Positions 1 through 63,219 of a stretch of 64,000 nucleotides of DNA are shown piece by piece. The notes under the pieces are model-generated. The model saw only the letters and a list, made by a program, of their open reading frames with translations, was not told the DNA's origin and did no database searches. Within the stretch, counting starts at the first letter, position 1, and each line of letters opens with the position of its first letter. The stretch comes from Torpedo marmorata (lineage: Eukaryota). The position numbers were made by a program, and so were the translations under genes. The stretch spans positions 32,736,001 to 32,800,000 of the forward strand of contig OZ360230.1 in the NCBI GenBank assembly GCA_977017645.1, read 5' to 3'.

Positions 1-1
1 G

Positions 2-1125
2 CCCTCCGATGCTCTATCCCGGGGGACGTGCGCTAGCGCACAGATCGACCGGTTATATGCCCTCCACTGTGACCTCTGCCACCCCGGAGCTACCAGGCTG
101 TTTCACTTTGTGAAGGCCCGTAATCTACCGTACTCCCTAGAAGAGGTCAGGGCGATGACCAGCAGCTGCCAAGTCTGCGCGGAGTGCAAACCGCACTTCT
201 ACCGCCCTGACAGGGCACAGTTAGTTAAGGCAACCCGCCCTTTCGAGCGACTCAGCGTCGACTTCAAGGGCCCCCTCCCCTCCACCGCAACGTGTACTTC
301 CTCAACATCATTGATGAGTACTCGCGGTTCCCCTTCGCCATCCCCTGCCCCGATACCTCGGCCACCTCCGTCATAAGAGCTTTTCGCAAACTCTTCACTC
401 TGTTCGGTTTCCCCCGTTACATCCATAGCGACCGGGGGTCTGCATTCATGAGCGACGAGCTGCGACAATATCTGCTGGAAAAGGGGATCGCCACTAGCAG
501 GACCACGAGCTACAATCCTCGGAGTAACGGCCAGGTGGAAAGAGAGAACGCCACAGTCTGGAAGGCCGCTCTCTTAGCACTTAGCTCTTAGGGACTCCCA
601 CTCTCCCGCTGGCAAGAAGTCCTTCCCGAGGCCCTCCATTCCATCCGGTCCCTGCTATGTACGGCCACCAATGCGACTCCTCATGAGAGACTCTTTTCTT
701 TTCCCAGGAAGTCGACCACCGGGACTACCTTACCAGCATGGCTGACGACCCTAGGGCCAGTGCTGCTCCGCAAACATATCAGGAGCAATAAATACGCCCC
801 AATGGTCGAGAGGGTCCAGTTAGCCCACGCAAACCCCCAGTACGCCTACGTGGTCTTCCCTGATGGGCGGGAAGACACCGTCTCCATCCGGGACCTGGCG
901 CCCGCAGGAGCACAGGAACCCGCTCCCGAACACCCCCTTGGTATGATTACCCCCGTTCAAACAGTCAGTCCCGCCACGACACCACAATCACCAGCACTTT
1001 CGCCGTCACCCGGCGTTCCGGTACCCCAAACCAGGCAGGAGGTGGCTCCGCCGCCTGCCCCATCACCACAAGTACTGCGCCGATCACAACGTCAGATTCG
1101 ACCACCAGATCGGCTTGAGCTATGA
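2..1125 (+). pseudogene. Retrotransposon pol integrase domain, disrupted
   Basis: Frameshift near 285 (ORF 110..376 to ORF 292..591). In-frame TAG at 589-591, after which the same frame continues GLPLSRWQEVLPEALHSIRSLLCTATNATPHERLF into ORF 760..1125. Confidence 0.88.
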
Positions 1126-1197
1126 CTGTATATATGTTAGATGTGTTGTAGTGTTCACTTCACCCCGCTGGACTCTTTTTTTAAAAGGAGGGGTGAA

Positions 1198-1432
1198 TGT
1201 GGTAAACCACTGTATATATGTATTGTGGGCTGGTGATAAGTCTGGACATGCCCTGCTGACTGTCCCGGTGGCTCCTCCCACTACCTCCCTTGAATAAAGG
1301 CCATTGTGCCACAACTCCTACCCCAGTCCGGGACAGATCATCAGCATGAATGTAGGTCCATTCTGTAGTCAATAAAAGCCTTTCAGTTCTAGTACAACTT
1401 CCAGTCTTTTGGAGTTATTGATGGGCGTATCA
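1198..1432 (+). repeat. 3' LTR (235 bp)
   Basis: Begins TGTGG just after the PPT and ends ...GTATCA. Contains two AATAAA (~1293, ~1371). Followed directly by GGCATGGAATACATTG, which matches the D-to-A intron of the array unit. Confidence 0.85.
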
Positions 1433-1999: not shown

Positions 2000-4900
2000 T
2001 CTCAGAAACAAGCACGGCCACCACTGGCCCTTCTACCACTCCAGGCACAAGCAGCGAGACAACAGGTACAATCATGCACCATATACGTATCCACCGTTCG
2101 GTCTTCTCTCCCAGTCAATATTTCCTATTGATGCAAATTAAAAACAGTAGCAATGCCTGATGTTTAAAGCTGAAAAGATTCTTCATCATGGCTAAACACA
2201 GTTCCATTCTGTGATTCAATAAAAAATTGCACAGATAAAGCAGATTTAAGAAAAATAATCAGATGCCCAGCAAGATGAAAATCTAATTGTATATTTGTCC
2301 AGTCATGTCTCTACGTCAACTAACATAATGATTCGACAACAATACCTTTGCCATGTCTGTGACGAATTCAAATGTCAAAAGGGGCTTCACATTAAGAACT
2401 AAACATCAGGCTGCAGCGATTGGAGCCAAATATACAATTAATTAGTGTTCTATTTTTTATTTTCAAATTCTTTGCTGTCAGCTAAAATAATGTTGCCATT
2501 AAAATCTATTCAATGGCTTATCAAGGACTGATGCACAAGTAGGTAACTGTGTAAAGTTCACAATTTTGCCCAACTATTCATTCATCACTTGCTGTGACAT
2601 GGAACCTTCTTCACTTTGAAAATAATCAACAGTCACAAGGTATCCCTTGCAACATTGCTATTACACGAACTATTTGACATAAGAAAGGAAATAACATTAA
2701 TTCATTGTTACATCGTCTGTTTAAACCATGTATTAGAGCAGCTTGAACATGCTCTGATGTATTTTAACTAAATGCAATGTGTATCTATTTAAAGGAACTC
2801 TATCTACAACCACAGAAGGTAGTACCTCCTCAGTGGAAAGTACAACTTTCAACTTTTCAACAACAGAGCCAACATCAACGTTGACAGGTAACATTAATGG
2901 GCACCGAGTCTTTGTATGTTGGCAGGAATGAGTTACAAATTGTAAAAATCTACCTCCAATTAGATGTATTATTGGAGTATTGTCCAAGGCTGCATGTCAT
3001 CAGAAAGGTTAAACTGTTCAAAGTCATTCCCGTATGGAAATTCTGTAGTGCGAAATGTTCTGATCAATATAAATTATGTGGATATTAATGCTCAGGGGGC
3101 TTAGGTTGCATCCCTGCGTGATGAATTCCATGTGAAGTCGTATACTTCAGAGCAGTCACTTCAACAGGATGGAATGAATTGAGGGATTAACGATAAACAT
3201 TCATTGTACAAGTACAAGAAAATATTCCAATCAATCTTAAAAACTAGCAATCAACTGAATGGTGACTCCTATTTGACAGGATGTCACACTTTATTTTCAA
3301 TTATTGGTAACCATTTCTTCTTCTCAGTTTCATTTCCCTGTCAGAAATGTAAGTGCTCCGTTGTATAATAAGCTGTTTCATTACATCCAGAGAGTCAACT
3401 TGACTTTAACATCAGCACGTTTTGTCTTCATTTTCAGTATCAGAACAAAGCACGACCACCCCGGCTCCTTCAACCACCTCTGCTACAAGTAGTGAAACAG
3501 CAGGTAGATTTATACATCAAAAGTATCAATACAATACAATGCAAATATAACAGTGACTTTTTAGGGGCTTCCAGATAGACGTGTGAATATACGGGGAAAA
3601 ACGAGCTGAGTAACATTGCAATCACTAGGGATTTTGGAAAATTAGGCATATCAGGTTTATCGCCAACATTATGAGACCTGGGTCCGATTCCGGTGCAGTT
3701 CTGTTCTATTGTCCAGGTTCCCCACAGTCATGTATTCTCTCAATTCAAGTGATGATTGGAGATGCTTGATAAATTTCTATTCAGATTTCTGAATTGCTGA
3801 AAAAATCATGTTATCTTCATAGTTCCATGCACTGAATCAGTGAACTATTCCGTAGATATGGCGTATTAGAGCAAAGATTTTTTTCTTAAAAATAACCATT
3901 GGTCTTGCAAGGTTAGACCACGTGTGAATTTGCATTTTTTATGTCTACACATTATAAAATCTATCTATTAAAATAAAAATGGCTTTGCCGTTGCTGTGAA
4001 GCATTCAAATAACAACATTGCCCTGCTCACTCAAATAACCAAACAGATTTTCAACATAATCAAATGAATATTAAGCTGTAGTCACTGCTGTCATATATGC
4101 ATTCACTTTCTGGCTCTAATATCCTTTTTCAAACACATTCTTCTCTTGTAAAATCCAGATACTTTTGAAATCTAACAAATAATTCATCAATGGATAACCA
4201 ACAAATCAATATCCATGCCAAGTCTACAACTTTTACCTTTAACTATTCATTGATATTTCATGGACGTTTCTTCAAGATAAATAAACATGCAGTTCCATGA
4301 CATCAGTTGCTAACTATGTTATTACATTCTAAAATACTTGGCATAAGAAAGGAAATGAAAGTAAATTGAATAGAGATCTGACTTCCAGGATCGTTGAATC
4401 TAAGTCTAGAACATAGAAGCTAGAACATAGAACAATTCAGCACAGTACAGGCCCTTCGGCCCTCGATGTTGTGCTGACCCACATATTCCTTCCTAAAAAA
4501 AAAGCACTAAACCCTCCCTACCCCATAACCCACTATTTTCCTTTCATCCAAGTGTCTGTCTAAGAGTCTCTTAAATTCCCCCAATGTTTCAGCCTCCACC
4601 ACCATCCCCGGCAAGGCATTCCAGGCACCCATAACTCTCTGTGTAAATAAACCTACCCCTGATGTCTCCCCTAACGTGGACAATGTGGACAGGCTTTTAT
4701 CATTTAAAGTGGGGAAGATTCAAACAAGGGGGCATGGATTGAGATTGAAGGGGTAAAAGTTTAGAGGAAACATGAGGGGGAATTTCTTCACTCAGAGGTT
4801 GGTGGGAGGGTGGAACGACCTTCCGGCCAAAGTGGCAGATGCAGGTTCAATTTCAATTTTTAAGGAAAAGTTGGATAGGTATATGGACGAGAGAGGTTCG

Positions 4901-5914
4901 GAGGGTTATGGGCCAGGTGCGGGTCAGTGGGACGAGTTGGGAGAAGGTGTTCGGCACGGACTAGAAGGGCCGAACCGGCCTGTTTCTGTGCTGTAAGTGT
5001 TATATGGTTATATGGTTATATAAACCTCCCTCCCTTAACTTTGTACATATGTCCTCTGGTGTTTGCTGATCCTGCCCTGGGAAATAGGTGCTGGCTCTCC
5101 ACCCTATCTATGCCTCTCATAAACTTGTAGGCCTCTATCAAGTCTCCTCTCATCCTTTTACGCTCTAAAGAAAAAAATCCCAGCTCTGCTAACCTTGCCT
5201 CATAAGACTTGTTTCCCAATCCAGCCAACATCCTGGTAAATTTCCTCTGCACCCTCTCCATTGCTTCCACATCCTTCCTATAATTGGGTGACCAGACTGA
5301 ACAAAATACTCTTAAGTGTGTTCTTACCAAAGATTTGTAGAGTTGCAACACAACCTCTCTACTCCTGAATTCAATCCCCCTATTAATGAATCCCAGCATC
5401 CCATAGGTCTTTTTAACTATCCTGTCAACCTGTGCGGTGACCTTGAGGGATGTATGGATTTTCACCCCAAGGTCCATCTGTTCATCCACACTCTGAATGA
5501 ACCGACCATTAACCCTCTACTCAGCCTTCTGGTTTGTCCTTACAAAATGCATCACCTCTCACTTATCTGCATTGAAATACATCTGCTACGTTTCTGCCCA
5601 ACTCTGAATCCTGTCTATATCCTCTTGTAACCTTCGACAACCTTCAGCTCCATCCACAACTCCTCCAACCTTCGTGTCATCCGCAAACTTACTGACCCAT
5701 CCTTCCGCCTCTTCATCCAGGTCATTTATAAAAAAAAACAGAGCAGTGGTTCCAGAACAGATCTAATAGCAGCTTTCCATGCCTCTATGTATTTTAACAA
5801 TAATGTTTCACATATTTCAAGGAACTACATCTGTGAAAACAGAACGAATTAACTCCACAGAGCAAATTACATCTTTGACCACTTCTACAACAGAGTCAAC
5901 ATCATTTGTCACAG
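2000..5914 (+). CDS. Mucin unit 1 exons: A 2000-2065, B 2795-2887, C 3438-3503, D 5822-5914
   Basis: ttttcag/TCTCAG..ACAG/gtac; tttaaag/GAACTC..ACAG/gtaac; ttttcag/TATCAG..GCAG/gtag; tttcaag/GAACTA..ACAG/gtaac. Most divergent unit. Confidence 0.85.
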
Positions 5915-8900
5915 GTAACATCAATAATAACCTGCTACTCCAATTGTTGGCATGGAATACATTGTAAGTGTAAAAATATTGTCTCGTTCACATAATTACT
6001 TGTGGAGTTATGCAAGGCGAGAGACCTGACTGTCATCAGAAAGGATCATCGAGTCAGGCTCATGCCCCGATGAACTGACAGTTGCATCCAAGTTTTGATT
6101 GAAGGAATTTACTGGGAAATTAATCCTCAAGTGTCAGTTTGGTAAATCAGTGTTTAATAAATACATTTTTCAACTTCAAAAACCAAAAGTTGATTGAAAT
6201 GATCATGCAGATTTCTTCGCATTCACTTATACCTGTTGCCATTTTTGCTGAGGCAAAATGGGTAAGCATTTGGTGCATATTACTAAGAACAAATTTCAAC
6301 CATCGCTCGAGGCTGACAGTTATCAACCTCATGTTGATCCTGACTCTAATTTGTCAGGATGCAACATATAATGTTCAATACTGGCTTAGAATTTATTTTC
6401 CTTAATTTCATGCTTGCCTCTGTAATTTAACTGCATTATCATATAATAAGAAATTTTATTGTATCCAGAAAATTGTTGTCTTTAACATCAACGCATGCCT
6501 GAATTTATTTTCAGTCGCAGAAACAAGCACGGCCAACACTGCCCCTTCTACCACTCCAGGCACAAGCAGCGAGAAAACAGGTACAATCATGCACCATATA
6601 CGTATCCACCGTTCGGTCTTCTCTCCCAGTCAATATTTCCTCTTGATGCAAATTAAAAACAGTAGCGATGCCTGATGTTTAAAGTTGAAAAGATTCTTCA
6701 TCATGGCTAAACACAGTTCCATTCAGTGATTCAATGAAAAATTGCACAGATAAAGCATATTTGCGACAGCAGATTTAAGAAAAATAATTAGATGCCCAGC
6801 AAGATGAAAATCTAACTGTAAATTTGTCTTGTCGTGTCTCTACGTAAACTAACGTAATAATTCGTCAACAATACCTTTGCCATGTCTGTGACGAATTCAA
6901 ATGTCAAAAGGGGCTTCACATCAAGCACTAAACATCAGACTGCAGTGATTGGTGCCAAATACACAATCATTTACACGCTCTATTTTTTATTTTCAAAATC
7001 CTTGCAGTCAGCTAAAGTAATGTTGCCATTAAAATCTATTCAATGGTTTATCAAGGACTGACGCACAAGTAGGTAACGGTGAAAAGTTCACAATTTTCCC
7101 CAACTATTCACTCATCACTTGCTGTGACATGGAACCTTCTTCACTTCGAAAATAATCAACAGTCACAAGGTATCCCTTGCAACATTGCTATTACACAAAC
7201 TATTTGTCATAAGAAAGGAAATAAAATTAATTCACTGTTACATCGTCTGTTTAAACCATGTATTAGAGCAGCTTGAACATGCTCTGATGTATTTTAACTA
7301 AATTCAATGTGTATCAATTTAAAGGATCTCTATCTACAACGACAGAAGGAAGTACCTCCTCAGTGGAAAGTACGACTTTCAGCTCTTCAACAACAGAGCC
7401 AACATCAACGTCAATAGGTAACATCAATGGGCACCGAGGAGTTGTATGTTGGCAGGGATGAGTTACAAATTGTAAAAATATACCTCCAATCAAATATGTG
7501 CTTGGTGTATTGTCCAAGGCTGCATGTCAACAGAAAGGTTAAACTGTTCAAAGTCATTCCCGTATGGAAATTCTGTGGTGTCAAATGTTCTGATCAATAT
7601 AAATTATGTACATATTATTGCTCAGGGGGGCATAGGTTGCACCCCTGCGTGATGAATTCCATGTGAAGTCGTATATTTCAGAGCAGTCACTTCAACAGGA
7701 TGGAATGAATTGAGGGATTAACGATAATCATTCATTGTACAAGTACGAGAAAATATTCCAATCAATCTTAAAAACTAGCAATTATCTGAATGGTGACTCG
7801 TATTGGACAGGATGTCACACTTTATTTTCAAATATTGGTTACCATTTCTTCTTCTCAGTTTCATTTCCCCTTCAAAAATGTAAGTGCTCTGTTGTATAAT
7901 AAGCTGTTTCATTACATCCAGAGAGTCAACTTGACTTTAACATCAGCACGTTTTGTCTTCATTTTCAGTATCAGAACAAAGCACGACCACCTTGGCTCCT
8001 TCAACCACCTCTGCTACAAGTAGTGAAACAACAGGTAGATTTATACATCAAAAGTATCAATACAATACATTGCAGATATGACAGTGGCTTTTTAGGGGCT
8101 TCCATATAGACGCGTGAATATACAGGGAAAAACGGGTTAAGTAACATTGAAAACACGAGAGATTTTGGAAATTTAGGCATCAGGTAAATTGCTGACATAA
8201 TGAGACCTTGGGCCGATTCCGGTGCAGTTCTGTTCTATTGTCCAGGTTCCCCACAGTCATGTATTCTCTCAATTCAAGTGATGATTGGAGATGCTTGATA
8301 AATTTCTCTTCAGATTTCTGAACTGTTGATGAAAATCATGTTCACTTTATAGTTCCATGCACTGAATCATTGAACTATTCCGTAGATATGGCATATTTGA
8401 GAAAAAAAAACTCTTAAAAATAACCATTGGTCTTGCAATACGAGAACACGTGCGAATTTGCATTTTTTATGCCTCCACATTATAAAATCTAACTATTAAA
8501 ATAAAAATGGCTTTGCCGTCACTGTAAAGCGTTCAAATAACAAAATTGCCCAGCTCACTCAAATTAACAAGAAGAATTCAACCTAATCAAATGAATATTA
8601 AGCTGTAGTCACTGCTGTCATATATGCATTCACTTTCTGGCTCTAACATCCTTTTCAAACACATTCAACTCATGTAAAATCCAGATAATTTTGAAATCTA
8701 ACAAATAATTCATCAATGGACAACCAACAAATAAATATCGATGCCAATTCTACAACTTTTACCATTAACTATTCATTGATATTTCATGGAGGTTCCCTTC
8801 AAGATAAACATGCAGTTCCATGACATCAGTTGCCAACTACGTTATTGCATTCTGAAATACTTGGCATCTGAAAGGAAATGAAAGTAATTTGAATAGAGAT

Positions 8901-35900: not shown

Positions 35901-38900
35901 AATCAGATGCCCAGCAAGATGAAAATCTAACTGTAAATTTGTCTTGTAGTGTCTCTAAGTAAACTAATGTAATGATTCGACAACAATACCTTTGCCATGT
36001 CTGTGATGAATTCAAATGTCAAAAGGGGCTTCACATTATGCACTAAACATCAGACTGCAGTGATTGGTGCCAAATATACAATCATTTACACGCTCTATTT
36101 TTTATTTTCAAAATCCTTGCAGTCAGCTAAAGTAATGTTGCTATTAAAATCTATTCAATGGTTTATCAACGACGGACGCACAAGTAGGTAACGGTGAAAA
36201 GTTCACAATTTTGCCCAACTATTCACTCATCACTTGCAGTGACATGGAACCTTCTTCACTTCGAAAATAATCAACAGTCACAAGGAATCCCTTGCAACAT
36301 TGCTATTACACAAACTATTTGTCATAAGAAAGGAAATAAAATTAATTCACTATTACATTATCTGTTTAAACCATGTATTAGATCAGCTTGAACATACTCT
36401 GTTTTATTTTAACTAAATGCAATGTGTATCTATTTAAAGGAACTCTATCTTCAACGACAGAAGGAAGTACCTCGTCAGTGGAAAGTACAACTTTCAGCTC
36501 TTCAACAACAGAGCCAACATCAACGTCAACAGGTAACATCAATGGGCACCGAGACTTTGTATGTTGGCAGGGATGAGTTACAAATTGTTAAAATATACCT
36601 CCAATCAAATATGTGATTGGTCTATTGTCCAAGGCTGCATGTCATCAGAAAGGTTAAACCTTTCAAAGTCATTCCCGTATGGAAATTCTGTTGTGTGAAA
36701 TGTTCTGATCAATATAAATTATGTACATATTAATGCTCAGGGGGGCATAGGTTGCATCCCTGCGTGATGAATTCCATGTTAAGTCGTATAGTTCAGAGCA
36801 GTTACTTCAACAGGATGGAATGAATTGAGGGATTAACGATAAACATTCATTGTACAAGTACGAGAAAATATTCCAATCAATCTTAAAAACTAGCAATCAT
36901 CTGAATGGTGACTCGTATTTGACAGGATGTCACACTTTATTTTCAATTATTTTTAACCATTTCTTCTCAGTTTCATTTCCCCTTCAAAAATGTAAGTGCT
37001 CTGTTGTATAATAAGCTGTTTCATTACATCCAGAGAGTCAACTTGACTTTAACATCAGCACGTTTTGTTTTCATTTTCAGTATCAGAACAAAGCACGACC
37101 ACCCTGGCTCCTTCAACTACAAGTAGTGAAACAACAGGTAGATTTCTACATCAAAAGTATCAATACAATACATTGCAGATATGACAGTGGCATTTTAGGG
37201 GCTTTCAGATAGACGCGTGAATATACGGGGAAAAACGGGTTAAGTAACATTGAAAACACGAGAGATTTTGGAAATTTAGGCATCAGGTAAATTGCTGACA
37301 TAATGAGACCTTGGGCCGATTCCGGTACAGTTCTGTTCTATTGTCCAGGTTCCCTACAGTCATGTATTCTCTCAATTCAAGTGATGATTGGAGATGCTTG
37401 ATAAATTTCTCTTCAGATTTCTGAACTGCTGAAGAAAACCATGTTCACTTTATAGTTCCATGCACTGAATCAGTGAACTATTCCGTAGATATGGCATATT
37501 TGAGAAAAAAAAATTCTTAAAAATAACCATTGGTCTTGCAAGACGAGACCACGTGTGAATTTGCATTTTTTATGTCTCCACATTATAAAATCTATCTACT
37601 AAAATAAAAATGGCTTTGCCGTCACTGTAAAGCGTTCAAATAACAAAATTGCCCAGCTCACTCAAATTACCAAGCAGAATTCAACCTAATCAAATGAATA
37701 TTAAGCTGTAGTCACTGCTGTCATATATGCATTCACTTTCTGGCTCTAACATCCTTTTCTCACACATTCAACTCATGTAAAATCCAGATAATTTTGAAAT
37801 CTAACAAATAATTCATCAATGGACAACCAACAAATAAATATCAATGCCAATTCTACAACTTTTACCATTAACTATTCATTGATATTTCATGGAGGTTCCC
37901 TTCAAGATAAACATGCAGTTCCATGACATCAGTTCCCAACTATGTTATTGCATTCTGAAATACTTGGCATCGGAAAGGAAATGCAATTAATTTGAATAGA
38001 GATCTGACTTCCAGGATCGTTGAATCTAAGTCGAGAACATATAAGCTAGAAAATAGCACAATTCAGCACATTACAGGCCTTTCGGCCTTTGATGTTGTGT
38101 CGACCTACATATTCCTTCCTAAACTAAAGTACTAAACCCTCCCTACCCTATAACCCTTTATTTCTCTTTAATCCATGTGTCTGTCTAAGTGTCTTTTAAA
38201 TTCCCGCAATGTTTCAACATCCACCACCATTCCCGGCAATGCATTCCAGGCACCCACAACTCTCTGTGTAAAAAACCTACCACTGATGTCTCCCCTAAAC
38301 TTCCCTCCATTAACTTTGTACATATGTCCTCTGGTGTTTGCAGATCCTGATCTGGGAAACAGGTGCTGGCTGTCCACCCTATCTATGCCTCTCATAATCT
38401 TGTAGACCTCCATCAAGTCTCCTCTCATCCTTCTGCACTCCAAAGAGAAAGGTCCCAGCTCTGCTAACCTTGCCTCAACAGACTTCTTTCCCAATCCAGC
38501 CAACATCCTGGTAAATTTCCGCTGCACCCTCTCCATAGCTTCCACATATTTCCTATAAATAGGTGACCAGAACTGAACACAATACTTACCAAAGATTTGT
38601 GGAGTTGCAACATGACCTCTCTACTCCTGAATTAAATCCCCCTATTAATGAATCCCAGCATCACATATACCTTTTTAAATATCCTGTCAACCTGTGCGGC
38701 GACCTTGAGGGATGTATGGACTTGTACCGCATGGTCCAAATGTTCATCCACACTCTTAAATATCCGACCATTAACCCTGAACTCAACATTCAGGTTTGTC
38801 CTTCCAAAATGCATCACCTCACACTTATCCGGATTGAAATCCATCTGCCACTTTTCTGCCCAACTCAGCATCCTTTCAAAATCCTCTTGAAAACTTCGAC

Positions 38901-53900: not shown

Positions 53901-56900
53901 AAACACGAGAGAATTTGTAAATTTAGGCATCAGGTAAATTGCTGACATAATGAGACCTTGGGCCGATTCCGGTGCAGTTCTGTTCTATTGTCCAGGTTCC
54001 CCACAGTCATGTATTCTCTCAATTCAAGTGATGATTGGAGATGCTTGATAAATTTCTCTTCAGATTTCTGAACTGCTGAAGAAAATCATTTTCACTTTAT
54101 AGTTCCATGCAATGAATCAGTGAACTATTCCGTAGATATGGCATATTTGAGAAAAAAAAATTCTTAAAAATAACCATTGGTCTTGCAAGACGAGACCACG
54201 TGTGAATTTGCATTTTTTATGCCTCCACATTATAAAATCTAACTATTAAAATAAAAATGGCTTTGCCGTCACAGTAAAGCGTTCAAATAACAAAATTGCC
54301 CAGCTCACTCAAATAACCAAGCAGAATTTCAACCTAATCAAATGAATATTAAGCTGTAGTCACTGCTGTCATATATGCATTCACTTTCTGGCTCTAATAT
54401 CCTTTTCAAACACATTCTACTCTTGTAAGATGCAGATAGTTTTGAAATCTAACAAATAATTCAATAATGGTTAACCAACAAATAAATATCTATGCCAATT
54501 CTACAACTTTTAACTTCAACTATTCGTTGATATTTCATGGAGGTTTCTTCAAGATAAATAATCATGCAGTTCCATGACATCAGTTGCCAACTACGTTATT
54601 GCATTCTGAAATACTTGGCATCAGAAAGGAAATGAAAGTAATTTGAATAGAGATCTGACTTCCAGGATCATTGAAACAATGTCTGCAACATAGAAGCTAG
54701 AACATAGAACAATTCAGCACAGTACAGGCCCTTCGGCCTTTGATGTTGTGCCGACCCACATTTGACAGATTAGAGTGGAATTATTTATTTAAAGTATTGG
54801 AAAAATTTGGTTTTGGAATTACATTTATTAATTGGATTAAAACTATATATAAGGAACCCTCTGCTAGGGTGGTTACAAATGGACAAATTTCTTCAAAGTT
54901 TTTGTTGACTAGGTCGACACGACAAGGATGTCCGTTATCACCCGCATTATTTGTTTTAGCAATTGAACCTTTGGCGGAATTAATTAGACAAGATATTAAG
55001 ATTGCGGGTATTAAAGTTGGAAATGAAGAACATAAGATTAATCTATTTGCAGATGATGTATTGATATATATGACAAAACCTATTACTTCTTTAATACATT
55101 TGGATGTTATATTGAGGGAATATGGGGAGATTTCTGGTTATAAAATCAATTCTGATAAAAGTGAAATTATGGCATTAACACAAGGCGATTATAGTAAATG
55201 GAAAGAAATTACACAATTTAAATGGTCAAACGAAGGAATTAAATATTTAGGTATAAAGATAGATACTAAACTAGCCAACTTATATAAATTAAATTATTTA
55301 CCATTATTTGCGAAAATTAAAAAAGATTTGGAAAGTTGGAAGGATTTATCTATAACTTTATTAGGAAGGGTAAATTGTATTAAAATGAATATCTTTCCAA
55401 TGATTCAATATCTTTTTCAATCAATTCCATATGAAATTCCTCAAAAATCTTTTAAAGATTTAAATTTTATTATTAGGAAGTTTTTGTGGAAAGGTAAATT
55501 GGCTAGAGTAGCTATGGAAAATTTAACTTGGAATTATGAATTGGGTGGATTACAACTGCCTAATTTTCAAAATTATTATAAAGCAGCCCAATTATGGTTT
55601 ATTAATGAATTGTTGGATTTAACAAAAGATTCGGCGTGGATCCGAATAGAATTAAATAATATAGGAGAAGATTTGAAGGAAGAAGTTATTTATAAATGGA
55701 ATTCTAAATTAATATTGATAAGTGGTAAAAATTCTCCTATTTTTAAACATTTATTAGAAATATGGAATAGATTGGATAAAGAGATAGGAGCGAAAGGTTT
55801 AATTTCGCCAAATATGCCTTTATATCAAAATAGACTTATTCCATTTGCTTTTAATAATCAGTTATTTAAAATTTGGTTTCAAAAGGGAATTAAGAATGTA
55901 AATGATTGTTTTGAAGCTGGTAAATTTATTACTTTTCAAAGAATGAAAGATAAATTTAATATATTAAATAATACATATTTTGCCTATTTTCAAATTAAAG
56001 CTTTTTTAGTTGAAAAACTGGGTCATAATTTGGTTTTACCTCGACAAAGTGAATTTGAATTATTAGTTATAAATGGAGGTGTAAATAAATTTATTTCTCA
56101 AATGTATAAATTATTACAGAGGAAAATGCCCAAGGTAGCAATTCATAAATCAAGATTAAAATGGGAATCAGATTTGAATGTAACTATAGAAGAAAAACAT
56201 TGGAAAGAATTATGTAAGTTAAGTATGACTAAAATTATTAATGTCAGATATAGATTAGTGCAATATAATTTTTTTCATCAATTATATTTAACACCTAAAA
56301 AATTAAAGAAGTTTAATCCAGCGTTATCAGATATGTGTTTTAGATGTAATAGGGAAGAAGGTTCTTTTGTACATTCTACTTGGTTTTGTCCAAAGATTCA
56401 GGATTTTTGGTTTAAGGTTAAGGAATTTTTAGATAAAGTATTAAGAAATATACTCCCAATGGATCCGATGATATTTTTATTTGCAGATATTAAAAGAATT
56501 AGTATTATGATGAATTTAAATATGTATCAAATTGAGTTTTTGAGAATTGCTTTAGCTGTTGCTAAGAAATGTATTGCTATCACTTGGAAATCTGATGTAG
56601 ATTTAGGTTTAGAAAGGTGGCATGCAGAACTTCGTTCTTGTATACCACTTGAAAAAATTACTTATAATTTACGTAACAAATATCATTTCTTTTCGAAAAT
56701 ATGGAGCCCATATATAAAAGCGGTCGACTTAAAAATAAAAATTTGAAGATCTCTGAACATTGGATCAGGCTGGTGAACCTAATTTCCACAAAAATTTTAG
56801 TTTATAGTTATTCTTATTGTAGATTGACATTCTCCTTAGTTTATCTTTTTCTTTTCTTTATTTTATTTTATTTTATAGATTAGTACGGGTGGGGGGGTTA

Positions 56901-59900
56901 GGGTGGGGAGGGTGGTTGGGAGGGAGAAAATATATCACATGTATTTTGATAATTTTGCGATTTATACAATGTATTTTGTGATTTAAAATTTTAAATAAAA
57001 TATTCAAAAAAAAAAAAAAAAAAAAAAAGTACTAAATCCTCCCTAACCTATAACCATCTATTTCTCTTTCATCCATGTGTCTCTCTAAGTGTCTTTTAAA
57101 TTCCCCCAATGTTTCAACATCCACCACCATCCCCGGCAATGCATTCCAGGCACCCACAATTCTCTGTGTAAAAAACCTACCCCTGATGTTTCCCCTAAAC
57201 TTCCCTCCATTAACTTTGTACATATGTCCTATGGTGTTTGCAGATCCTGCCCTGGGAAACAGGTGCTGGCTGTCCACCCTATCTATGCCTCTCATAATCT
57301 TGTAGATCTCCATCAAGTCTCCTTTCATCCTTCTGCACTCCAAAGAGAAAGGTCCCAGCTCTGCTAACCTTGCCTCAACAGACTTGTTTCCCAATCCAGC
57401 CAACATCCTGGTAAATTTCCGCTGCACCCTCTCCATAGCTTCCACATATTTCCTATAATCAGGTGACCAGAACTGAACACAATACTTACAAATGATTTGT
57501 GGAGTTGCAACATGACCTCTCTACTCCTGAATTCAATCCCCCTAATAATGAATCCCAGCATCACATATGCCTTTTTAAATATCCTGTCAACCTGTGTGGC
57601 GACCTTGAGGGATATATGGATTTGTACCGCATGGTCCAAATGTTCATCCACACTCTTAAATATCCAACCATTAACCCTGTATTCAGCATTCTGGTTTGTC
57701 CTTCCAAAATGCATCACCTCACACTTATCCGGATTGAAATCCATCTGCCACTTTTCTGCCCAACTCAGCATCCTGTCAAAATCCTCTTGTAAACTTCGAC
57801 AACCTTCAGCTCCATCTACAACTCCTCCAACCTTCGTGTCATCTGCAAACTTACTGACCCATCCGTCCGCCTCTTCATCCATGTCATTTATAAAAATCAC
57901 AAAGAGCAGGGGTCCCAGAACAGATCTAATAGCAGTTTTCCATGCCTCTATGTATTTTAACAATCATTTTCACATATTTCAAGGAACTACATCTGTGACA
58001 ACAGAACCAAGCACCTCCACCGAGCAAATTACATCTTTGACAACTTCTACAACAGAGTCAACATCATTTGTCACAGGTAACATCAATCATAACCTGCTAC
58101 TCCAATTGTTGGCATGGAATACATTGTAAGAGTAAAAATATTGTCTCGTTCACGTAATCTCTTGTGGAGCTATGCAAGGCGAGAGATCTGACTGTCATCA
58201 GAAAGGATCATCGAGTCAGGCTCATGCCCCGATGAAATGACAGTTGCATCCAAGTTTTGATTGAAGGAAATTACTGGCAAAAATTAATCCTCAAGTGTCA
58301 GTTTGGAAAATCAGTGTTTAATAAATACATATTTTAAATTCAAAAACCAAAAGTTGATTGAAATGATCATGCAGATTTCTTCGCGTTCACTTCAAACTGT
58401 TGCCATTTTTTGCTGAGGCAAAATGGGTAAGCTTTTGGTGCATATTACTAAGAACAAATTTCAACCATTGCTCGAGGCTGACAGTTATCAACCTCATGTT
58501 GATCCTGACTCTAATTTGTCAGGATGCTACGTATAATGTTCAATACTGGCTTAGAATTTATTTTCCTTAATTTCATGCTTGCCTCTGTAATTTAACTGCA
58601 TTATCATATATTAAGAAATTTTATTGTATCCAGATAATTGTTGCCTTTAACATCAACGCATGCCTGACTTATTTTCAGTCTCAGAAACGAGCACGTCCAC
58701 CACTGCCCCTTCTACCACTCCAGGCACAAGCAGCGAGACAACAGGTACAATCATGCACCATATACGTATCCACCGTTCGGTCTTCTCTCCCAGTCAATAA
58801 TTCCTCTTGATGCAAATTAAAAACAGTAGGGATGCCTGATGTTTAAAGCTGAAAAGATTCTTCATCATGGTTAAACACAGTTCCATTCTGTGATTCAATG
58901 AAAAATTGCACAGATAAAGCATATTTGCAACAGCAGATTTAAGAAAAATAATCTGATGCCAGTGCAAGATAAAAATCTAACTAAAAATTTGTCTTGTCGT
59001 GTCTCTACATAAACTAACGTAATGATTCGACAACAATACCTTTGCCATGTCTGTGACGAATTCAAATGTCAAAAGGGGCATCACATCAAGCACTAACCAT
59101 CAGACTGCAGTGATTGGTGCCAAATACACAATCATTTACACACTCTATTTTTTATTTTCAAAATCCTTGCAGTCAGCTTAAGTAATGTTGCCATTAAAAT
59201 CTATTCAATGGTTTATCAATGACTGACGCACAAGTAGGTAACGGTGAAAAGTTCACAATTTTGCCCAACTATTCACTCATCACTTGCTGTGACATGGAAC
59301 CTTCTTCACTTCGAAAATAATCAACAGTCACAAGGTATCCCTTGCAACATTGTTATTACACAAACTATTTGTCATAAGAAAGGAAATAAAATTAATTCAC
59401 TGTTACATCGTCTGTTTAAACCATGTATTAGAGCAGCTTGAACATACTCTGATGTATTTTAACTAAATTCAATGTGTATCAATTTAAAGGATCTCTATCT
59501 ACAACGACAGAGGGAAGTACCTCCTCAGTGGAAAGTACGACTTTCAGCTCATCAACAACAGAGCCAACTTCAACGTCAATAGGTAACATCAATGGGCACC
59601 GAGGCATTGTATGTTGGCAGGGATGAGTTACAAATTGTAAAAATATACCTCCAATCAAATATGTGCTTGGTGTATTGTCCAAGGCTGCATGTCATCAGTA
59701 AGGTTAAACTGTTCAAAGTCATTCCCGTATGGAAATTCTGTGGTGTGAAATGTTCTGATCAATATAAATTATGTACATATTAATGCTCAGGGGGGCATAG
59801 GTTGCATCCCTGCGTGATGAATTCCATGTTAAGTCGTATACTTCAGAGCAGTCACTTCAACAGGATGGAATGAATTGAGGGATTAACGATAAACATTCAT

Positions 59901-62900
59901 TGTACAAGTACGAGAAAATATTCCAATCAATCTTAAAAACTAGCAATTATCTGAATGGTGACTCGTATTGGACAGGATGTCACACTTTATTTTCAAATAT
60001 TGGTTACCATTTCTTCTTCTCAGTTTCATTTCCCCTTCAAAAATGTAAGTGCTCCGTTGTATAATAAGCTGTTTCATTACATCCAGAGAGTCAACTTGAC
60101 TTTAACATCAGCACGTTTTGTCTTCATTTTCAGTATCAGAACAAAGCACGACCACCTTGGCTCCTTCAACCACCTCTGCTACAAGTAGTGAAACAACAGG
60201 TAGATTTATACATCAAAAGTATCAATACAATACATTGCAGATATGACAGTGGCTTTTTAGGGGCTTCCAGATAGAAGCGTGAATATACGGGGAAAAACGG
60301 GCTGAGTAACATTAAAAGCACGAGAGATTTTGGAAATTTTGGCATCAGGTAAATCTTTGACATAATGAGACCTTGGGCCGATTCCGGTGCAGTTCTGTTC
60401 TATTGTCCAGGTTCCCCACAGTCATGTATTCTCTCAATTCAAGTGATGATTGGAGATGCTTGATAAATTTCTCTTCAGATTTCTGAACTGCTGAAGAAAA
60501 TCAAGTTCACTTTATAGTTCCATGCACTGAATCAGTGAACTATTCCGTAGATATGGCATATTTTAGAAAAAAATACTTAAAAATAACCATTGGTCTTGCA
60601 AGACGAGAACACGTGTGAATTTGCATTTTTTATGCCTCCACATTATAAAATCTAACTATTAAAATAAAAATGTCTTTGCCGTCACTGTAAAGCGTTCAAA
60701 TAACAAAATTGCCCAGCTCACTCAAATAACCAAGCAGAATTCAACCGAATCAAATGAATATTAAGCTGTAGTCACTGCTGTCATATATGCATTCACTTTC
60801 TGGCTCTAACATCCTTTTCAAACACATTCAACTCATGTAAAATCCAGATAATTTTGAAATCTAACAAATAATTCATCAATGGACAACCAACAAATAAATA
60901 TCGATGCCAATTCTACAACATTTACCTTTAACTATTCATTGATATTTCATGGAGGTTCCCTTCAAGATAAACATGCAGTTCCATGACATCAGTTGCCAAC
61001 TATTTTATTGCATTCTGAAATACTTGGCATCAGAAAGGAAATGAAAGTAATTTGAATAGAGATCTGATGTCCAGGATCGTTGAATCTAAGTCTAGAACAG
61101 AGAAGCTAGAACATGGAACAATTCAGCACAGTACAGGCCCTTCGGCCCTCGATGTTGTGCCGACCCACATATTCCTTCCTAAAATAAAAGTACTAAACCC
61201 TCCCTACCCTATAACCCTCTATTTCTCTTTCATCCATGTGTCTGTCTAAGTGTCTCTTAAATTCCCCCAATGTTTCAGCCTCCACCACCATCCCCGGCAA
61301 TGCATTCCAGGCACTCACAACTCTCTGTGTAAAAAACCTACCCCTGATGTCTCCCCTAAACTTCGCTCCATTAACTTTGTACATATGTCCTCTGGTGTTT
61401 GCAGGTCCTGCCCTATCTATTCCTCTCATAATCTTGTAGACCTCCATCAAGTCTCCTTTCATCCTTCTGCACTCCAAAGAGAAAGGTCCCAGCTCTGCTA
61501 ACCTTGCCTCAACAGACTTGTTTCCCAATCCAGCCAACATCCTGGTAAATTTCCGCTGCACCCTCTCCATAGCTTCCACATATTTTCCTTAATTTCATGC
61601 TTGCCTCTGTAATTTAACTGCATTATCGTATAATAAGAAATTTTATTGTATCCAGATAATTGTTACCTTTAACATCAACGCATGCCTGAATTCATTTTCA
61701 GTCTCAGAAACAAGCACGGCCACAACTGCCCCTTCTACCACTCCAGGCACAAGCAGCGAGACAACAGGTACAATCATGCACCATATACGTATCCACCGTT
61801 CGGTCTTCTCTCCCAGTCAATATTTCCTCTTGATGCAAATTAAAAACAGTAGCGATGCCTGATGTTTAAAGCTTGAAAGATTCTTCTTCATGGCTAAACA
61901 CAGTTCCATTCTGTGATTCAATGAAAAATTGCACAGATTAAGCATATTTGCGACAGCAGATTTAAGAAAAATAATCAGATGCCCAGCAAGATGAAAATCT
62001 AACTGTAAATTTGTCTTGTCGTGTCTCTACATAAACTAACGTAATGATTCAACAACAATACCTTTGCCATGTGTGTGACGAATTCAAATGTCAAAAGGGG
62101 CTTCACAACAAGAACTAAACATCAGACTGCAGTGATTGGTGCCAAATACACAATCATTTACACGCTCTATTTTATATTTTCAAAATCCTTGCAGTCAGCT
62201 GAAGTAATGTTGCCATTAAAATCTATTCAATGGTTTAGCAAGGACTGATGCACAAGTAAGTAACAGTGAAAAGTTCACAATTTTGCCCAACTATTCACTC
62301 ATCACTTGCTGTGACATGGAACCTTCCTCACTTCGAAAATAATCAACAGTCACAAGGTATCCCTTGCAACATTGCTATTACACAAACTATTTGTCATAAG
62401 AAAGGAAATAAAATTAATTCACTGTTACATCGTCTGTTTAAACCATGTATTAGAGCAGCTTGAACATACTCTGATGTATTTTAACTAAATGCAATGTGTA
62501 TCAATTTAAAGGAACACTATCTACAACGACAGAAGGAAGTACCTCGTCAGTGGAAAGTACAACTTTCAGCTCTTCAACAACAGAGCCAACATCAACGTCA
62601 ACAGGTAACATCAATGGGCACCGAGGCTTTGTATGTTGGCAGGGATGAGTTACAAATTGTAAAAATATACCTCAAATCAAATATGTGCTTGGTGTATTGT
62701 CCAAACTGCATGTCATCAGAAAGGTTAAACTGTTCAAGGTCATTCCCGTATGGAAATTCTGTGGTGTGAAATGTTCTGATCAATATAAATTATGTACATA
62801 TTAATGCTCAGGGGGGCATAGGTTGCATCCCTACGTGATGAATTCCATGTTAAGTCGTATACTTCAGAGCAGTCACTTCAACAGGATGGAATGAATTGAG

Positions 62901-63219
62901 GGATTAACGATAAACATTCATTGTACAAGTACGAGAAAATATTCCAATCAATCTTAAAAACTAGCAATCATCTGGATGATGACTCCTATTTGACAGGATG
63001 TCACACTTTATTTTCAATTATTGGTATCCATTTCTTCTTCTCAGTATCATTTCCCCTTCAAAAATGTAATGCTCTGTTGTATAATAAGCTGTTTCATTAC
63101 ATCCAGAGAGTCAACTTGACTTTAACATCAGCACGTTTTGTCTTCATTTTCAGTATCAGAACAAAGCACGATCACTCTGGCTCCTTCAACTACCTCTGCT
63201 ACAAGTAGTGAAACAACAG
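2000..63219 (+). CDS. Internal 58 exons of a large mucin-like (Ser/Thr-rich, PTS) glycoprotein gene; partial, ~1525 aa in window
   Basis: Every exon has an AG acceptor and GT donor, a length divisible by 3 and phase 1-1. Translation is ~66% S/T. No stop or frameshift seen; the one exonic indel is 9 bp and in frame. Confidence 0.9.
4408..5761 (-). mobile_element. 5'-truncated CR1-clade LINE fragment in the C-D intron (unit 1), containing a nested insert
   Basis: Minus-strand RT C-terminal peptides ([35 protein letters not shown]); tail reads (TTCTATG)-like on the minus strand. Confidence 0.9.
4675..5021 (+). mobile_element. Short 3' fragment of a second CR1-clade family, inserted in opposite orientation inside the unit-1 CR1
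   Basis: Encodes [18 protein letters not shown]...[10 protein letters not shown] and ends in a (GTTATATG)n tail. Interrupts CCCTAA/AC and is absent from all other units. Confidence 0.88.
6515..10074 (+). CDS. Mucin unit 2 exons: A 6515-6580, B 7325-7417, C 7969-8034, D 9982-10074
   Basis: Conserved splice sites; exon A variant [22 protein letters not shown]. Confidence 0.87.
8931..9922 (-). mobile_element. CR1-clade LINE fragment, unit 2 copy
   Basis: [14 protein letters not shown]...KFADDTK...NTRGH...LDRHMD on the minus strand. Confidence 0.9.
10676..14233 (+). CDS. Mucin unit 3 exons: A 10676-10741, B 11486-11578, C 12130-12195, D 14141-14233
   Basis: Conserved splice sites; open S/T-rich frame. 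Confidence 0.87.
13091..14081 (-). mobile_element. CR1-clade LINE fragment, unit 3 copy
   Basis: Same boundaries and motifs as unit 2. Confidence 0.9.
14834..18393 (+). CDS. Mucin unit 4 exons: A 14834-14899, B 15644-15736, C 16288-16353, D 18301-18393
   Basis: Near-identical to unit 2. Confidence 0.87.
17250..18241 (-). mobile_element. CR1-clade LINE fragment, unit 4 copy
   Basis: Same boundaries and motifs. Confidence 0.9.
18995..22554 (+). CDS. Mucin unit 5 exons: A 18995-19060, B 19805-19897, C 20450-20515, D 22462-22554
   Basis: Near-identical to unit 3. Confidence 0.87.
21411..22402 (-). mobile_element. CR1-clade LINE fragment, unit 5 copy
   Basis: Same boundaries and motifs. Confidence 0.9.
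23155..26712 (+). CDS. Mucin unit 6 exons: A 23155-23220, B 23965-24057, C 24609-24674, D 26620-26712
   Basis: Unit-2-type exon A; conserved splice sites. Confidence 0.87.
25571..26560 (-). mobile_element. CR1-clade LINE fragment, unit 6 copy
   Basis: Same boundaries and motifs. Confidence 0.9.
27314..30871 (+). CDS. Mucin unit 7 exons: A 27314-27379, B 28124-28216, C 28768-28833, D 30779-30871
   Basis: Conserved splice sites; B-D region near-identical to unit 6. Confidence 0.87.
29730..30719 (-). mobile_element. CR1-clade LINE fragment, unit 7 copy
   Basis: Same boundaries and motifs. Confidence 0.9.
31473..35031 (+). CDS. Mucin unit 8 exons: A 31473-31538, B 32283-32375, C 32927-32992, D 34939-35031
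   Basis: Conserved splice sites; open frame. Confidence 0.87.
33887..34879 (-). mobile_element. CR1-clade LINE fragment, unit 8 copy
   Basis: Same boundaries and motifs. Confidence 0.9.
35635..39176 (+). CDS. Mucin unit 9 exons: A 35635-35700, B 36440-36532, C 37081-37137 (57 nt), D 39084-39176
   Basis: Exon C carries a 9-bp in-frame deletion. Confidence 0.87.
38034..39024 (-). mobile_element. CR1-clade LINE fragment, unit 9 copy
   Basis: Same boundaries and motifs. Confidence 0.9.
39780..43337 (+). CDS. Mucin unit 10 exons: A 39780-39845, B 40590-40682, C 41234-41299, D 43245-43337
   Basis: Conserved splice sites; open frame. Confidence 0.87.
42197..43185 (-). mobile_element. CR1-clade LINE fragment, unit 10 copy
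   Basis: Same boundaries and motifs. Confidence 0.9.
43940..47501 (+). CDS. Mucin unit 11 exons: A 43940-44005, B 44747-44839, C 45391-45456, D 47409-47501
   Basis: Conserved splice sites; open frame. Confidence 0.87.
46358..47349 (-). mobile_element. CR1-clade LINE fragment, unit 11 copy
   Basis: Same boundaries and motifs. Confidence 0.9.
48104..51662 (+). CDS. Mucin unit 12 exons: A 48104-48169, B 48914-49006, C 49557-49622, D 51570-51662
   Basis: Conserved splice sites; open frame. Confidence 0.87.
50518..51510 (-). mobile_element. CR1-clade LINE fragment, unit 12 copy
   Basis: Same boundaries and motifs. Confidence 0.9.
52266..58076 (+). CDS. Mucin unit 13 exons: A 52266-52331, B 53076-53168, C 53719-53784, D 57984-58076
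   Basis: C-D intron enlarged by the L1 insertion; exons intact. Confidence 0.85.
54760..57028 (+). mobile_element. 5'-truncated L1-clade LINE (ORF2 C-terminal part, 3' UTR, poly-A)
   Basis: AT-rich insert absent from other units; G-rich 3' UTR tract; AATAAA at 56994-56999; A23 at 57006-57028. Confidence 0.93.
54761..56746 (+). CDS. L1 ORF2 fragment: reverse transcriptase plus C-terminal Cys/His zinc-binding region (no native start)
   Basis: [44 protein letters not shown]; about 660 codons without a stop. Confidence 0.9.
   Translation, partial: FDRLEWNYLFKVLEKFGFGITFINWIKTIYKEPSARVVTNGQISSKFLLTRSTRQGCPLSPALFVLAIEPLAELIRQDIKIAGIKVGNEEHKINLFADDVLIYMTKPITSLIHLDVILREYGEISGYKINSDKSEIMALTQGDYSKWKEITQFKWSNEGIKYLGIKIDTKLANLYKLNYLPLFAKIKKDLESWKDLSITLLGRVNCIKMNIFPMIQYLFQSIPYEIPQKSFKDLNFIIRKFLWKGKLARVAMENLTWNYELGGLQLPNFQNYYKAAQLWFINELLDLTKDSAWIRIELNNIGEDLKEEVIYKWNSKLILISGKNSPIFKHLLEIWNRLDKEIGAKGLISPNMPLYQNRLIPFAFNNQLFKIWFQKGIKNVNDCFEAGKFITFQRMKDKFNILNNTYFAYFQIKAFLVEKLGHNLVLPRQSEFELLVINGGVNKFISQMYKLLQRKMPKVAIHKSRLKWESDLNVTIEEKHWKELCKLSMTKIINVRYRLVQYNFFHQLYLTPKKLKKFNPALSDMCFRCNREEGSFVHSTWFCPKIQDFWFKVKEFLDKVLRNILPMDPMIFLFADIKRISIMMNLNMYQIEFLRIALAVAKKCIAITWKSDVDLGLERWHAELRSCIPLEKITYNLRNKYHFFSKIWSPYIKAVDLKIKI
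58679..60199 (+). CDS. Mucin unit 14 exons: A 58679-58744, B 59490-59582, C 60134-60199 (exon D deleted)
   Basis: Deletion junction at ~61581-61589 removes exon D. Confidence 0.85.
61094..61585 (-). mobile_element. CR1-clade LINE fragment, unit 14 copy, truncated by deletion
   Basis: Only the 3' half remains; it also has an internal 27-bp deletion ([10 protein letters not shown]). Confidence 0.88.
61702..63219 (+). CDS. Mucin unit 15 exons: A 61702-61767, B 62512-62604, C 63154-63219 (unit continues past the window)
   Basis: Conserved splice sites; open frame. Confidence 0.85.

What the first reader, a model, noticed from the sequence alone, without database searches (positions are those of the whole stretch)
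2000..63219. All exons are symmetric phase 1-1: a combinatorial, length-tunable splicing system
Seen: every exon is a multiple of 3 long and ends on the first G of a codon, so any exon can join any downstream exon in frame. B and D acceptors look weak (AAG; B has a poor pyrimidine tract, gtgtatcaatttaaag) while A and C are strong (ttttcag). Inference: one allele could yield a polydisperse ladder of mucin lengths by cassette skipping, analogous to the splice-generated polydispersity described for Xenopus integumentary mucins.
Basis: partly seen in the sequence, partly recalled or inferred. Interest (0 to 1): 0.7.

Follow-up and report, generated by a model that had tools for sequence, protein, structure and literature searches.

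The report
Shark/ray mucin with mini-exon stalk
The repeat hides 58 small frame-preserving exons that are part of the predicted sugar-coated stalk of a very large mucin-4-like gene of a shark or ray; their symmetry likely reflects how the gene grew by copying exons, a design already known from chicken and frog mucins, and whether cells tune stalk length by splicing is untested.

Summary
Observation confirmed: 58 of 58 exons in the window are 3n long, phase 1-1, AG/GT-bounded and stop-free. They sit in a gene of about 525 kb: signal exon, about 165 PTS mini-exons (about 4,300 aa), EGFs, NIDO, VWD (GDPH), C8, EGFs, TM. Its closest named relatives are elasmobranch mucin-4-like models.

The symmetry is weak evidence for a splicing system. 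The exons descend from at most two ancestral exons, and the signal exon, 11 of 11 EGF exons and 7 of 16 domain exons share phase 1. Only B has a clearly weak acceptor.

Across 217 copies there are no stop alleles (6-8 expected) and no GT changes, so exons are normally included. Some skipping is forced, because a few copies outside the window are dead. Independent skipping would give a narrow length spread (CV 1-7%). The proposed test junctions A-C, C-A and B-D already exist as genomic neighbours. No usable RNA was found. The same hypothesis was published for chicken Muc13 in 2006.

The parts
2000..63219 (+). Array of 58 PTS mini-exons in a ~4.16-kb tandem unit (D-A-B-C order); the middle part of the mucin stalk of a gene that runs far beyond the window on both sides
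   Evidence: Exon map. Unit lengths mostly 4145-4164 nt, unit pairs 90.7-99.7% identical, median 95.5% (91 pairs). Window = G000:C42:32736001-32800000.
2000..2065 (+). Exon type A (66 nt, phase 1-1), first of 15 copies; has an in-frame second AG 6 nt inside the exon
   Evidence: Other starts: 6515, 10676, 14834, 18995, 23155, 27314, 31473, 35635, 39780, 43940, 48104, 52266, 58679, 61702. Fallback AG.
2795..2887 (+). Exon type B (93 nt, phase 1-1), first of 15 copies; AAG acceptor with a poor pyrimidine tract, the only clearly weak acceptor
   Evidence: Other starts: 7325, 11486, 15644, 19805, 23965, 28124, 32283, 36440, 40590, 44747, 48914, 53076, 59490, 62512. Score.
3438..3503 (+). Exon type C (66 nt, phase 1-1, homologue of A), first of 15 copies; strong acceptor
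   Evidence: Other starts: 7969, 12130, 16288, 20450, 24609, 28768, 32927, 37081, 41234, 45391, 49557, 53719, 60134, 63154.
5822..5914 (+). Exon type D (93 nt, phase 1-1, homologue of B), first of 13 copies; AAG acceptor but a normal pyrimidine tract
   Evidence: Other starts: 9982, 14141, 18301, 22462, 26620, 30779, 34939, 39084, 43245, 47409, 51570, 57984. Score.
37081..37137 (+). C copy with an in-frame 9-nt deletion (57 nt)
60200..61701 (+). C-to-A intron of a unit that lost exon D by a genomic deletion of about 1.1 kb, which makes C-A a constitutive junction
54764..57027 (+). 5'-truncated LINE insertion with poly(A) end inside a C-D intron (passenger)
   Evidence: RVT_1 E 7e-20; ORF 54701-56746; sequence. 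The ends given are approximate.
1..1430 (+). Part of an LTR-retrotransposon insertion in the D-A intron just before the first A exon of the window (passenger)
   Evidence: rve E 1e-16 at 229-588; the preceding D exon lies about 5.1 kb upstream. The end given is approximate.

Best explanation
The 58 exons are phase 1-1 copies that encode part of the threonine/serine-rich stalk of a mucin-4-like gene; their symmetry is likely a legacy of exon duplication between phase-1 neighbours, and the exons are predicted to be spliced mostly in genomic order, with length likely set chiefly by DNA copy number.

Shown in sequence: a two-exon module (66 + 93 nt) doubled into a four-exon unit that was amplified in tandem; units gained and lost single exons by deletion; a few copies decayed; the downstream domain exons join into an open chain.

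Inferred: because every exon keeps the frame, loss of one exon by deletion, by acceptor loss or by a splicing error costs little. The array therefore tolerates turnover. Dead copies are skipped, and low-level skipping (most likely of B) gives many near-full-length mRNAs whose lengths differ by a few per cent. O-glycosylation, GDPH cleavage and membrane anchoring are inferred from family knowledge.
For: Ancestry: A~C and B~D homology, with flanking intron similarity inside the unit.

Phase context: the likely signal exon ends in phase 1; 11 of 11 EGF exons and 7 of 16 NIDO-to-C8 exons checked are also 1-1. Class 1-1 is the rule for extracellular modules (PMC8001218, passages). Disordered proteins are often built from tandemly duplicated symmetric exons (PMC3632108, passages).

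Selection for inclusion, 217 full-length copies: 0 stop alleles vs 6.2-8.5 expected from flanking introns (P about 0.001-0.002); 0 GT changes vs 5.9 (P 0.003); missense nearly neutral (omega 0.89). Two of three frameshifting deletion alleles sit on copies without an acceptor (8 of 226 copies lack AG; P about 0.004).

DNA-level turnover: 9 of 151 neighbour pairs in this gene copy depart from D-A-B-C order. The paralogous copy has 74 A-D exons against 152.

The four RefSeq isoform models seen for the Chiloscyllium plagiosum relative differ in an EGF, an fn3 or the C-terminal segment, not in the PTS part.
Against: No RNA was examined, so inclusion is inferred. Purging of stops would also occur at 50% inclusion, so it does not prove constitutive splicing. 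B has a weak AAG acceptor in all 15 window copies, and A has a below-median acceptor and donor. AG loss is not depleted (5 alleles vs 6.0 expected), so dropping an exon is cheap. One 31-nt C copy has intact AG/GT and an in-frame stop, so it must be skipped or the allele is null. [quoted passage not shown] The Chiloscyllium isoforms are automatic models of a relative with a much shorter PTS part.
Confidence: 0.6

Rival explanations
1. Type-specific cassette skipping: exon B (perhaps also D) is skipped at a substantial, possibly tissue-dependent rate, which shifts mean stalk length and glycosylation-site mix while keeping a narrow spread.
For: B acceptor scores below 51 of 53 comparison sites. 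AAG occurs in 0 of 27 domain-exon acceptors. All copies of a type share nearly the same splice signals, so one splicing factor could act on all of them at once (inference). Skipping 30% of B would shorten the stalk by about 340 aa.
Against: The B and D copies inspected (one per type) have a TTAAC branch-point match at -31 and -27 inside a 46-51-nt AG-free zone, which may compensate. D is no weaker than A. The AAG may simply be inherited from the shared B/D ancestor. No stop alleles in 52 B copies (3.0 expected).
Confidence: 0.22
2. One reading: long-range, combinatorial skipping makes one allele yield a broad ladder of mucin lengths, as in Xenopus integumentary mucins or schistosome SmPoMuc.
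For: Any donor can join any downstream acceptor in frame. About 165 short exons lie over 270 kb. Precedents: FIM-C.1 and SmPoMuc. FIM-B.1 repeat splicing is recalled, not read.
Against: Independent skipping, even at 50% of all A-D exons, gives a CV of only 6.9%, so a ladder needs correlated multi-exon skipping, for which no sequence feature was found or tested. In chicken MUC2 a search across the cDNA found one characterised in-frame PTS deletion and no massive splicing on infection (PMC3549977, passages).
Confidence: 0.15
3. The array is a non-coding macrosatellite or the remains of a pseudogene, and the exons are not used.
For: Exon substitutions are nearly neutral at the amino-acid level (omega 0.89). 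One copy carries a stop with intact splice sites. No transcript was seen.
Against: No stops and no GT changes in 217 copies. 27 downstream exons join to 1,328 aa without a stop, 797 of 1,168 aligned residues identical to a shark mucin-4-like model. Signal-like and TM exons are present.
Confidence: 0.03

Closest known systems
Elasmobranch and amphibian 'mucin-4-like' / 'mucin-like protein' RefSeq models (e.g. XP_043558361.1 Chiloscyllium plagiosum, XP_067850809.1 Heptranchias perlo)
   Same: PTS, EGFs, NIDO, VWD with GDPH, C8-3_MUC4, EGFs, TM in the same order; the first VWD exon is 77-87% identical to the shark and ray hits.
   Different: PTS of about 4,300 aa in about 165 exons, against roughly 250-1,050 aa in the models inspected; about 40 EGF exons; no fn3 match seen. 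The neighbouring gene at 33.29-33.40 Mb is closer to these models than this gene is, so this one is likely a paralogue. The exon structure of the relatives' PTS was not checked.
Chicken Muc13 (Lang, Hansson, Samuelsson 2006, PMC1552070; passages and section 8 read)
   Same: Transmembrane mucin whose PTS repeats are one exon each; the paper proposes length control by splicing, the same hypothesis as this finding.
   Different: SEA-type mucin with at least 12 repeats of 20 aa; here a NIDO/VWD-type mucin with a four-exon unit and more than ten times as many exons.
Xenopus integumentary mucins FIM-B.1/C.1 and Otogl/MucXS (PMC7177656 and PMC5789918, passages)
   Same: Multi-exon mucin domain (Otogl); polymorphism attributed to alternative splicing (FIM-C.1).
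   Different: Secreted gel-forming mucins with TFF or VWD-type cysteine domains. Splicing variation is reported there and untested here. The original FIM papers were not read.
Schistosoma mansoni SmPoMuc (PMC2576457, passages)
   Same: A small exon with its introns tandemly repeated as a homogenised genomic unit; repeat number varies at DNA level.
   Different: One 27-nt exon per 1-kb unit, at most about 20 copies, transcripts with more repeats than the genome; unrelated protein.
Human MUC4 (PMC4902942, passages)
   Same: NIDO, VWD, EGF, TM layout; cysteine-free VWD.
   Different: Tandem repeats lie in one large exon 2, skipped whole in MUC4/Y; Pfam AMOP was not detected here.

Membership tests
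Elasmobranch mucin-4-like group (NIDO-VWD-C8-EGF-TM mucins) | NIDO domain after the PTS region | tested here: met
   PF06119 on two exons, E 2e-5 and 1.5e-3, each below the curated cut-off alone; collinear tblastn to P0007 and P0004.
Elasmobranch mucin-4-like group (NIDO-VWD-C8-EGF-TM mucins) | VWD domain starting with GDPH, followed by C8-3_MUC4 | tested here: met
   PF00094 E 2e-6; GDPH in the joined chain; PF23263 E 1e-12.
Elasmobranch mucin-4-like group (NIDO-VWD-C8-EGF-TM mucins) | EGF repeats and a C-terminal transmembrane segment | tested here: met
   EGF_CA hits. TM-like exon at 33,231,464-33,231,652, 62% identical to P0007 1840-1896; no TM predictor was run.
Elasmobranch mucin-4-like group (NIDO-VWD-C8-EGF-TM mucins) | N-terminal signal peptide | tested here: inconclusive
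   One hydrophobic ATG exon with a phase-1 donor at 32,706,189-32,706,252, shared by both copies, was the only candidate of my filter; no signal-peptide predictor was available.
MUC4 proper (orthologue of human MUC4) | AMOP domain between NIDO and VWD | tested here: not met
   No PF03782 hit on the three intervening exons, nor on the named relative P0007; the genome search gave 6 matches, none on this contig. A diverged AMOP-like segment is not excluded.
MUC4 proper (orthologue of human MUC4) | Cysteine-free VWD | tested here: met
   No Cys in the four VWD exon translations; criterion from PMC1552070.
MUC4 proper (orthologue of human MUC4) | Orthology by tree or synteny | not tested
   No human sequence was fetched and no tree was built.
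Splice-generated polydisperse mucins (FIM-B.1/C.1, SmPoMuc type) | Repeats encoded by separate frame-preserving exons | tested here: met
   58 of 58 in the window.
Splice-generated polydisperse mucins (FIM-B.1/C.1, SmPoMuc type) | Transcripts of one allele differ widely in repeat number | not testable with these tools
   No RNA holder was listed; the one run offered gave no exon-exon joints among those shown.

The most novel reading that the evidence does not exclude
Because each exon type carries nearly the same splice signals in all of its 34-41 copies, one splicing factor acting on the weak B acceptor could drop many B exons at once. That would set the height and glycosylation pattern of a ~4,300-residue cell-surface stalk tissue by tissue: a splicing rheostat for glycocalyx thickness in a vertebrate, readable from short-read junction counts.
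Probability: 0.15. Interest if true: 0.65.

Novelty: new member of a known kind. Interest (0 to 1): 0.27.

Why it matters
As it stands, this is a large example of a known design: a mucin stalk built from many small exons. Automatic annotation likely truncates such stalks. Its practical value is as a test case for the 2006 proposal that such stalks are length-controlled by splicing. The four distinguishable exon types give known baselines for skip junctions and six junction types that cannot arise from ordered splicing of intact exons, so ordinary short-read RNA-seq can measure skipping without assembling the repeat. The pattern of dead copies (donors never mutated, acceptors lost freely, in-frame fallback AG) also shows how such arrays shed exons. 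If regulated skipping were found, it would be a new way of setting glycocalyx thickness.

Tried and rejected
RNA: no RNA holder listed. The one run offered, X1 (share 0.09, kind guessed), was laid twice. It covered mainly repeats, two listed pieces ran across exon-intron borders, and no joint shown matched an exon-exon junction (35 joints were not shown). It is uninformative.

SEA search of the genome: 31 matches, all on another contig. Three exons before the TM gave no SEA hit, so no SEA domain is claimed.

AMOP: not found.

Protein search with a D exon and flanks: 32 candidates, none scored.

A/C against B/D: no alignable homology at DNA level, so a single ancestral exon is not claimed.

MaxEntScan is not available; a recalled-frequency matrix was used instead.

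Eight partial BLAST hits were dropped as unresolved before the counts. One lies in the window at about 1433 and is intron flank only. One (32,725,824, 81 nt, 1-1) is a probable exon counted only in the PTS total. One is a B fragment in copy 2.

One search had exon C off by one base; corrected.

Literature searches found no description of a shark or ray mucin-4-like gene with a mini-exon PTS domain. The library lacks most subscription papers, and no supplements were read. PMC4948705 (passages) had nothing on exon structure.

Full report
Observation. The window is a tandem array of a ~4.16-kb unit with four small exons. I mapped 58 exons between 2000 and 63219: 15 A, 15 B, 15 C, 13 D. All are 3n long (66, 93, one 57), phase 1-1 and AG/GT-bounded. 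They join to 1,525 stop-free codons, 64% Thr+Ser.

The gene. The window lies at G000:C42:32,736,001-32,800,000 of a 6.2-Gb genome. I fetched 1.6 Mb around it. The A-D array has 152 exons; with 14 diverged tail exons and two leading exons the PTS part is about 165 usable exons and about 4,320 aa over 270 kb. Upstream is a likely signal-peptide exon that ends in phase 1 (32,706,189-32,706,252). Downstream come 9 EGF exons, NIDO, an unassigned segment, VWD with GDPH, C8-3_MUC4, 31 more EGF matches and a TM-like exon ending at 33,231,652. Twenty-seven of these exons join to 1,328 aa with no stop, 797 of 1,168 aligned residues identical to a Chiloscyllium mucin-4-like model. The best hits are shark and ray models. 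Pfam AMOP was not detected, so I file it with the elasmobranch mucin-4-like group and not as a MUC4 orthologue. A 95-100% identical copy lies about 800 kb upstream with 74 A-D exons.

Is the symmetry evidence for a splicing system? Only weakly. A and C are homologues and so are B and D, so phase was fixed at most twice and then copied. The array sits between a phase-1 signal exon and phase-1 EGF exons. All 11 EGF exons checked and 7 of 16 NIDO-to-C8 exons, which encode parts of folded domains, are also 1-1. Class 1-1 is the known rule for extracellular modules (PMC8001218, passages), and tandem duplication of symmetric exons is a described route to disordered proteins (PMC3632108, passages). 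That paper also finds that symmetry and disorder correlate with alternative splicing, so the prior for skipping is raised, not removed.

Splice sites. With a matrix of recalled frequencies, B is weak (2 of 53 comparison acceptors score lower), C is strong, and A and D are alike and below the median. AAG occurs in none of 27 corrected domain-exon acceptors. The one copy per type inspected has a TTAAC branch-point match at -27 to -33. The comparison set was picked partly by score and contained several mis-set borders.

Selection. In 217 full-length copies from both gene copies I counted distinct alleles per column against rates from 1,920 nt of flanking intron. Stops: 0 against 6.2-8.5 expected. 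GT changes: 0 against 5.9. Missense is nearly neutral (omega 0.89). Frameshifting deletions: 3 alleles, plus two exons broken at their 3' end in the upstream copy, against about 16 expected; that figure is inflated by 1-nt indels (57 of 112). Acceptor AG changes are not depleted: 5 alleles in 8 of 226 copies against 6.0. Two of these alleles are in A, which has an in-frame AG 6 nt further on; the 11 tail exons of 60 nt appear to use that site. Two of the three frameshift alleles sit on AG-less copies (P about 0.004, small numbers). I read this as: intact exons are included often enough for stops and frameshifts to be purged, while clean loss of an exon is cheap. Allele counts are not event counts, and the test cannot tell 50% from 100% inclusion.

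Evidence for some skipping. A 31-nt C copy at 32,830,528 has intact AG/GT and an in-frame stop. It must be skipped, or this allele is null, or the assembly is wrong there. Two frameshifted copies without AG are presumably always skipped. At only 1% error per A-D exon, 23% of mRNAs would keep all of them.

Would skipping give a ladder? Not if exons are skipped independently. The CV of stalk length is 0.8% at 1% skipping, 2.2% at 30% B skipping and 6.9% at 50% skipping of all A-D exons. Skipping can shift the mean but not spread it much. A ladder needs correlated long-range skipping, which I could not test. Length change at DNA level is visible: 9 of 151 neighbour pairs break the D-A-B-C order, including a D-less unit in the window, and the two gene copies differ twofold in exon number.

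The proposed test needs correcting. A-C, B-D, C-A and D-B all occur between intact neighbours (3/54, 7/53, 3/49, 5/57), so their presence proves nothing; their excess over baseline does. A-A, B-A, B-B, C-B, C-C and D-C never occur. Unit-specific SNPs are limited: 21 of 58 window exons are unique among 226 copies. No usable RNA was available.

What is known. Chicken Muc13 has one exon per PTS repeat, and its authors proposed length control by splicing (PMC1552070, section 8). Xenopus Otogl is multi-exonic (PMC5789918). FIM-C.1 is called polymorphic through alternative splicing (PMC7177656). SmPoMuc repeats a 27-nt exon in 1-kb units (PMC2576457). In chicken MUC2 one PTS splice variant was characterised (PMC3549977). 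Apart from section 8, all of these were seen as passages only. Unchecked notes of this scan report the same design in other mucins of cartilaginous fishes, one in this genome. Four isoform models of the Chiloscyllium relative differ outside the PTS part.

Verdict. A real and very large mini-exon mucin stalk; a new member of a known design. Ordered splicing with cheap exon loss: 0.6. Substantial type-specific skipping: 0.22. Broad combinatorial ladder: 0.15. Interest 0.27.

Noticed in passing
G000:C42 about 31.74-32.42 Mb (L106-L125, L046-L065, L086-L105, L146-L154): A 95-100% identical copy of the gene about 800 kb upstream, with different insertions, 74 A-D exons and its own EGF tail (54 EGF matches against 31). 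No TM-end exons were found up to 32.53 Mb, so it may be secreted or truncated. A haplotype artefact is not excluded.
   Followed up: partly
G000:C42:33,293,000-33,400,000 (L135-L145): A third mucin-4-like gene follows, closer to the named shark and ray models. It has about 9 related S/T-rich mini-exon candidates; two inspected are 66 and 69 nt, phase 1-1.
   Followed up: partly
G000:C42:33,092,597-33,185,419 (L075-L084): The second EGF cluster is itself a recently amplified array of phase 1-1 exons. The copy at 33,116,011 lacks its donor GT at the usual place.
   Followed up: partly
G000:C42:32,951,730-32,992,422 (L021-L025): A second PTS sub-array: ten 60-nt exons in a ~3.66-kb unit, A/C-derived, apparently using the AG 6 nt inside the ancestral exon.
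   Followed up: partly
A-D array, both gene copies: Donor GT never changes by point mutation (0 alleles) while acceptor AG changes five times (P about 0.03). Acceptor loss may give a clean skip or an in-frame shift, and donor loss a harmful read-through.
   Followed up: partly
window 54764-57027 and 1-1430: A 5'-truncated LINE with a long open RT-containing frame, and an LTR-element piece with an integrase core, both inserted in introns of the array.
   Followed up: no
G000:C54:34,109,966-34,238,259: A tandem array of about 30 SEA-domain exon matches on another contig, MUC16-like according to earlier scan notes.
   Followed up: no
G000:C42:32,476,860-32,527,347: About 50 kb that match 32,536,001-32,585,796 at 99.6%: a very recent tandem duplication or an assembly duplication between the two gene copies.
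   Followed up: no
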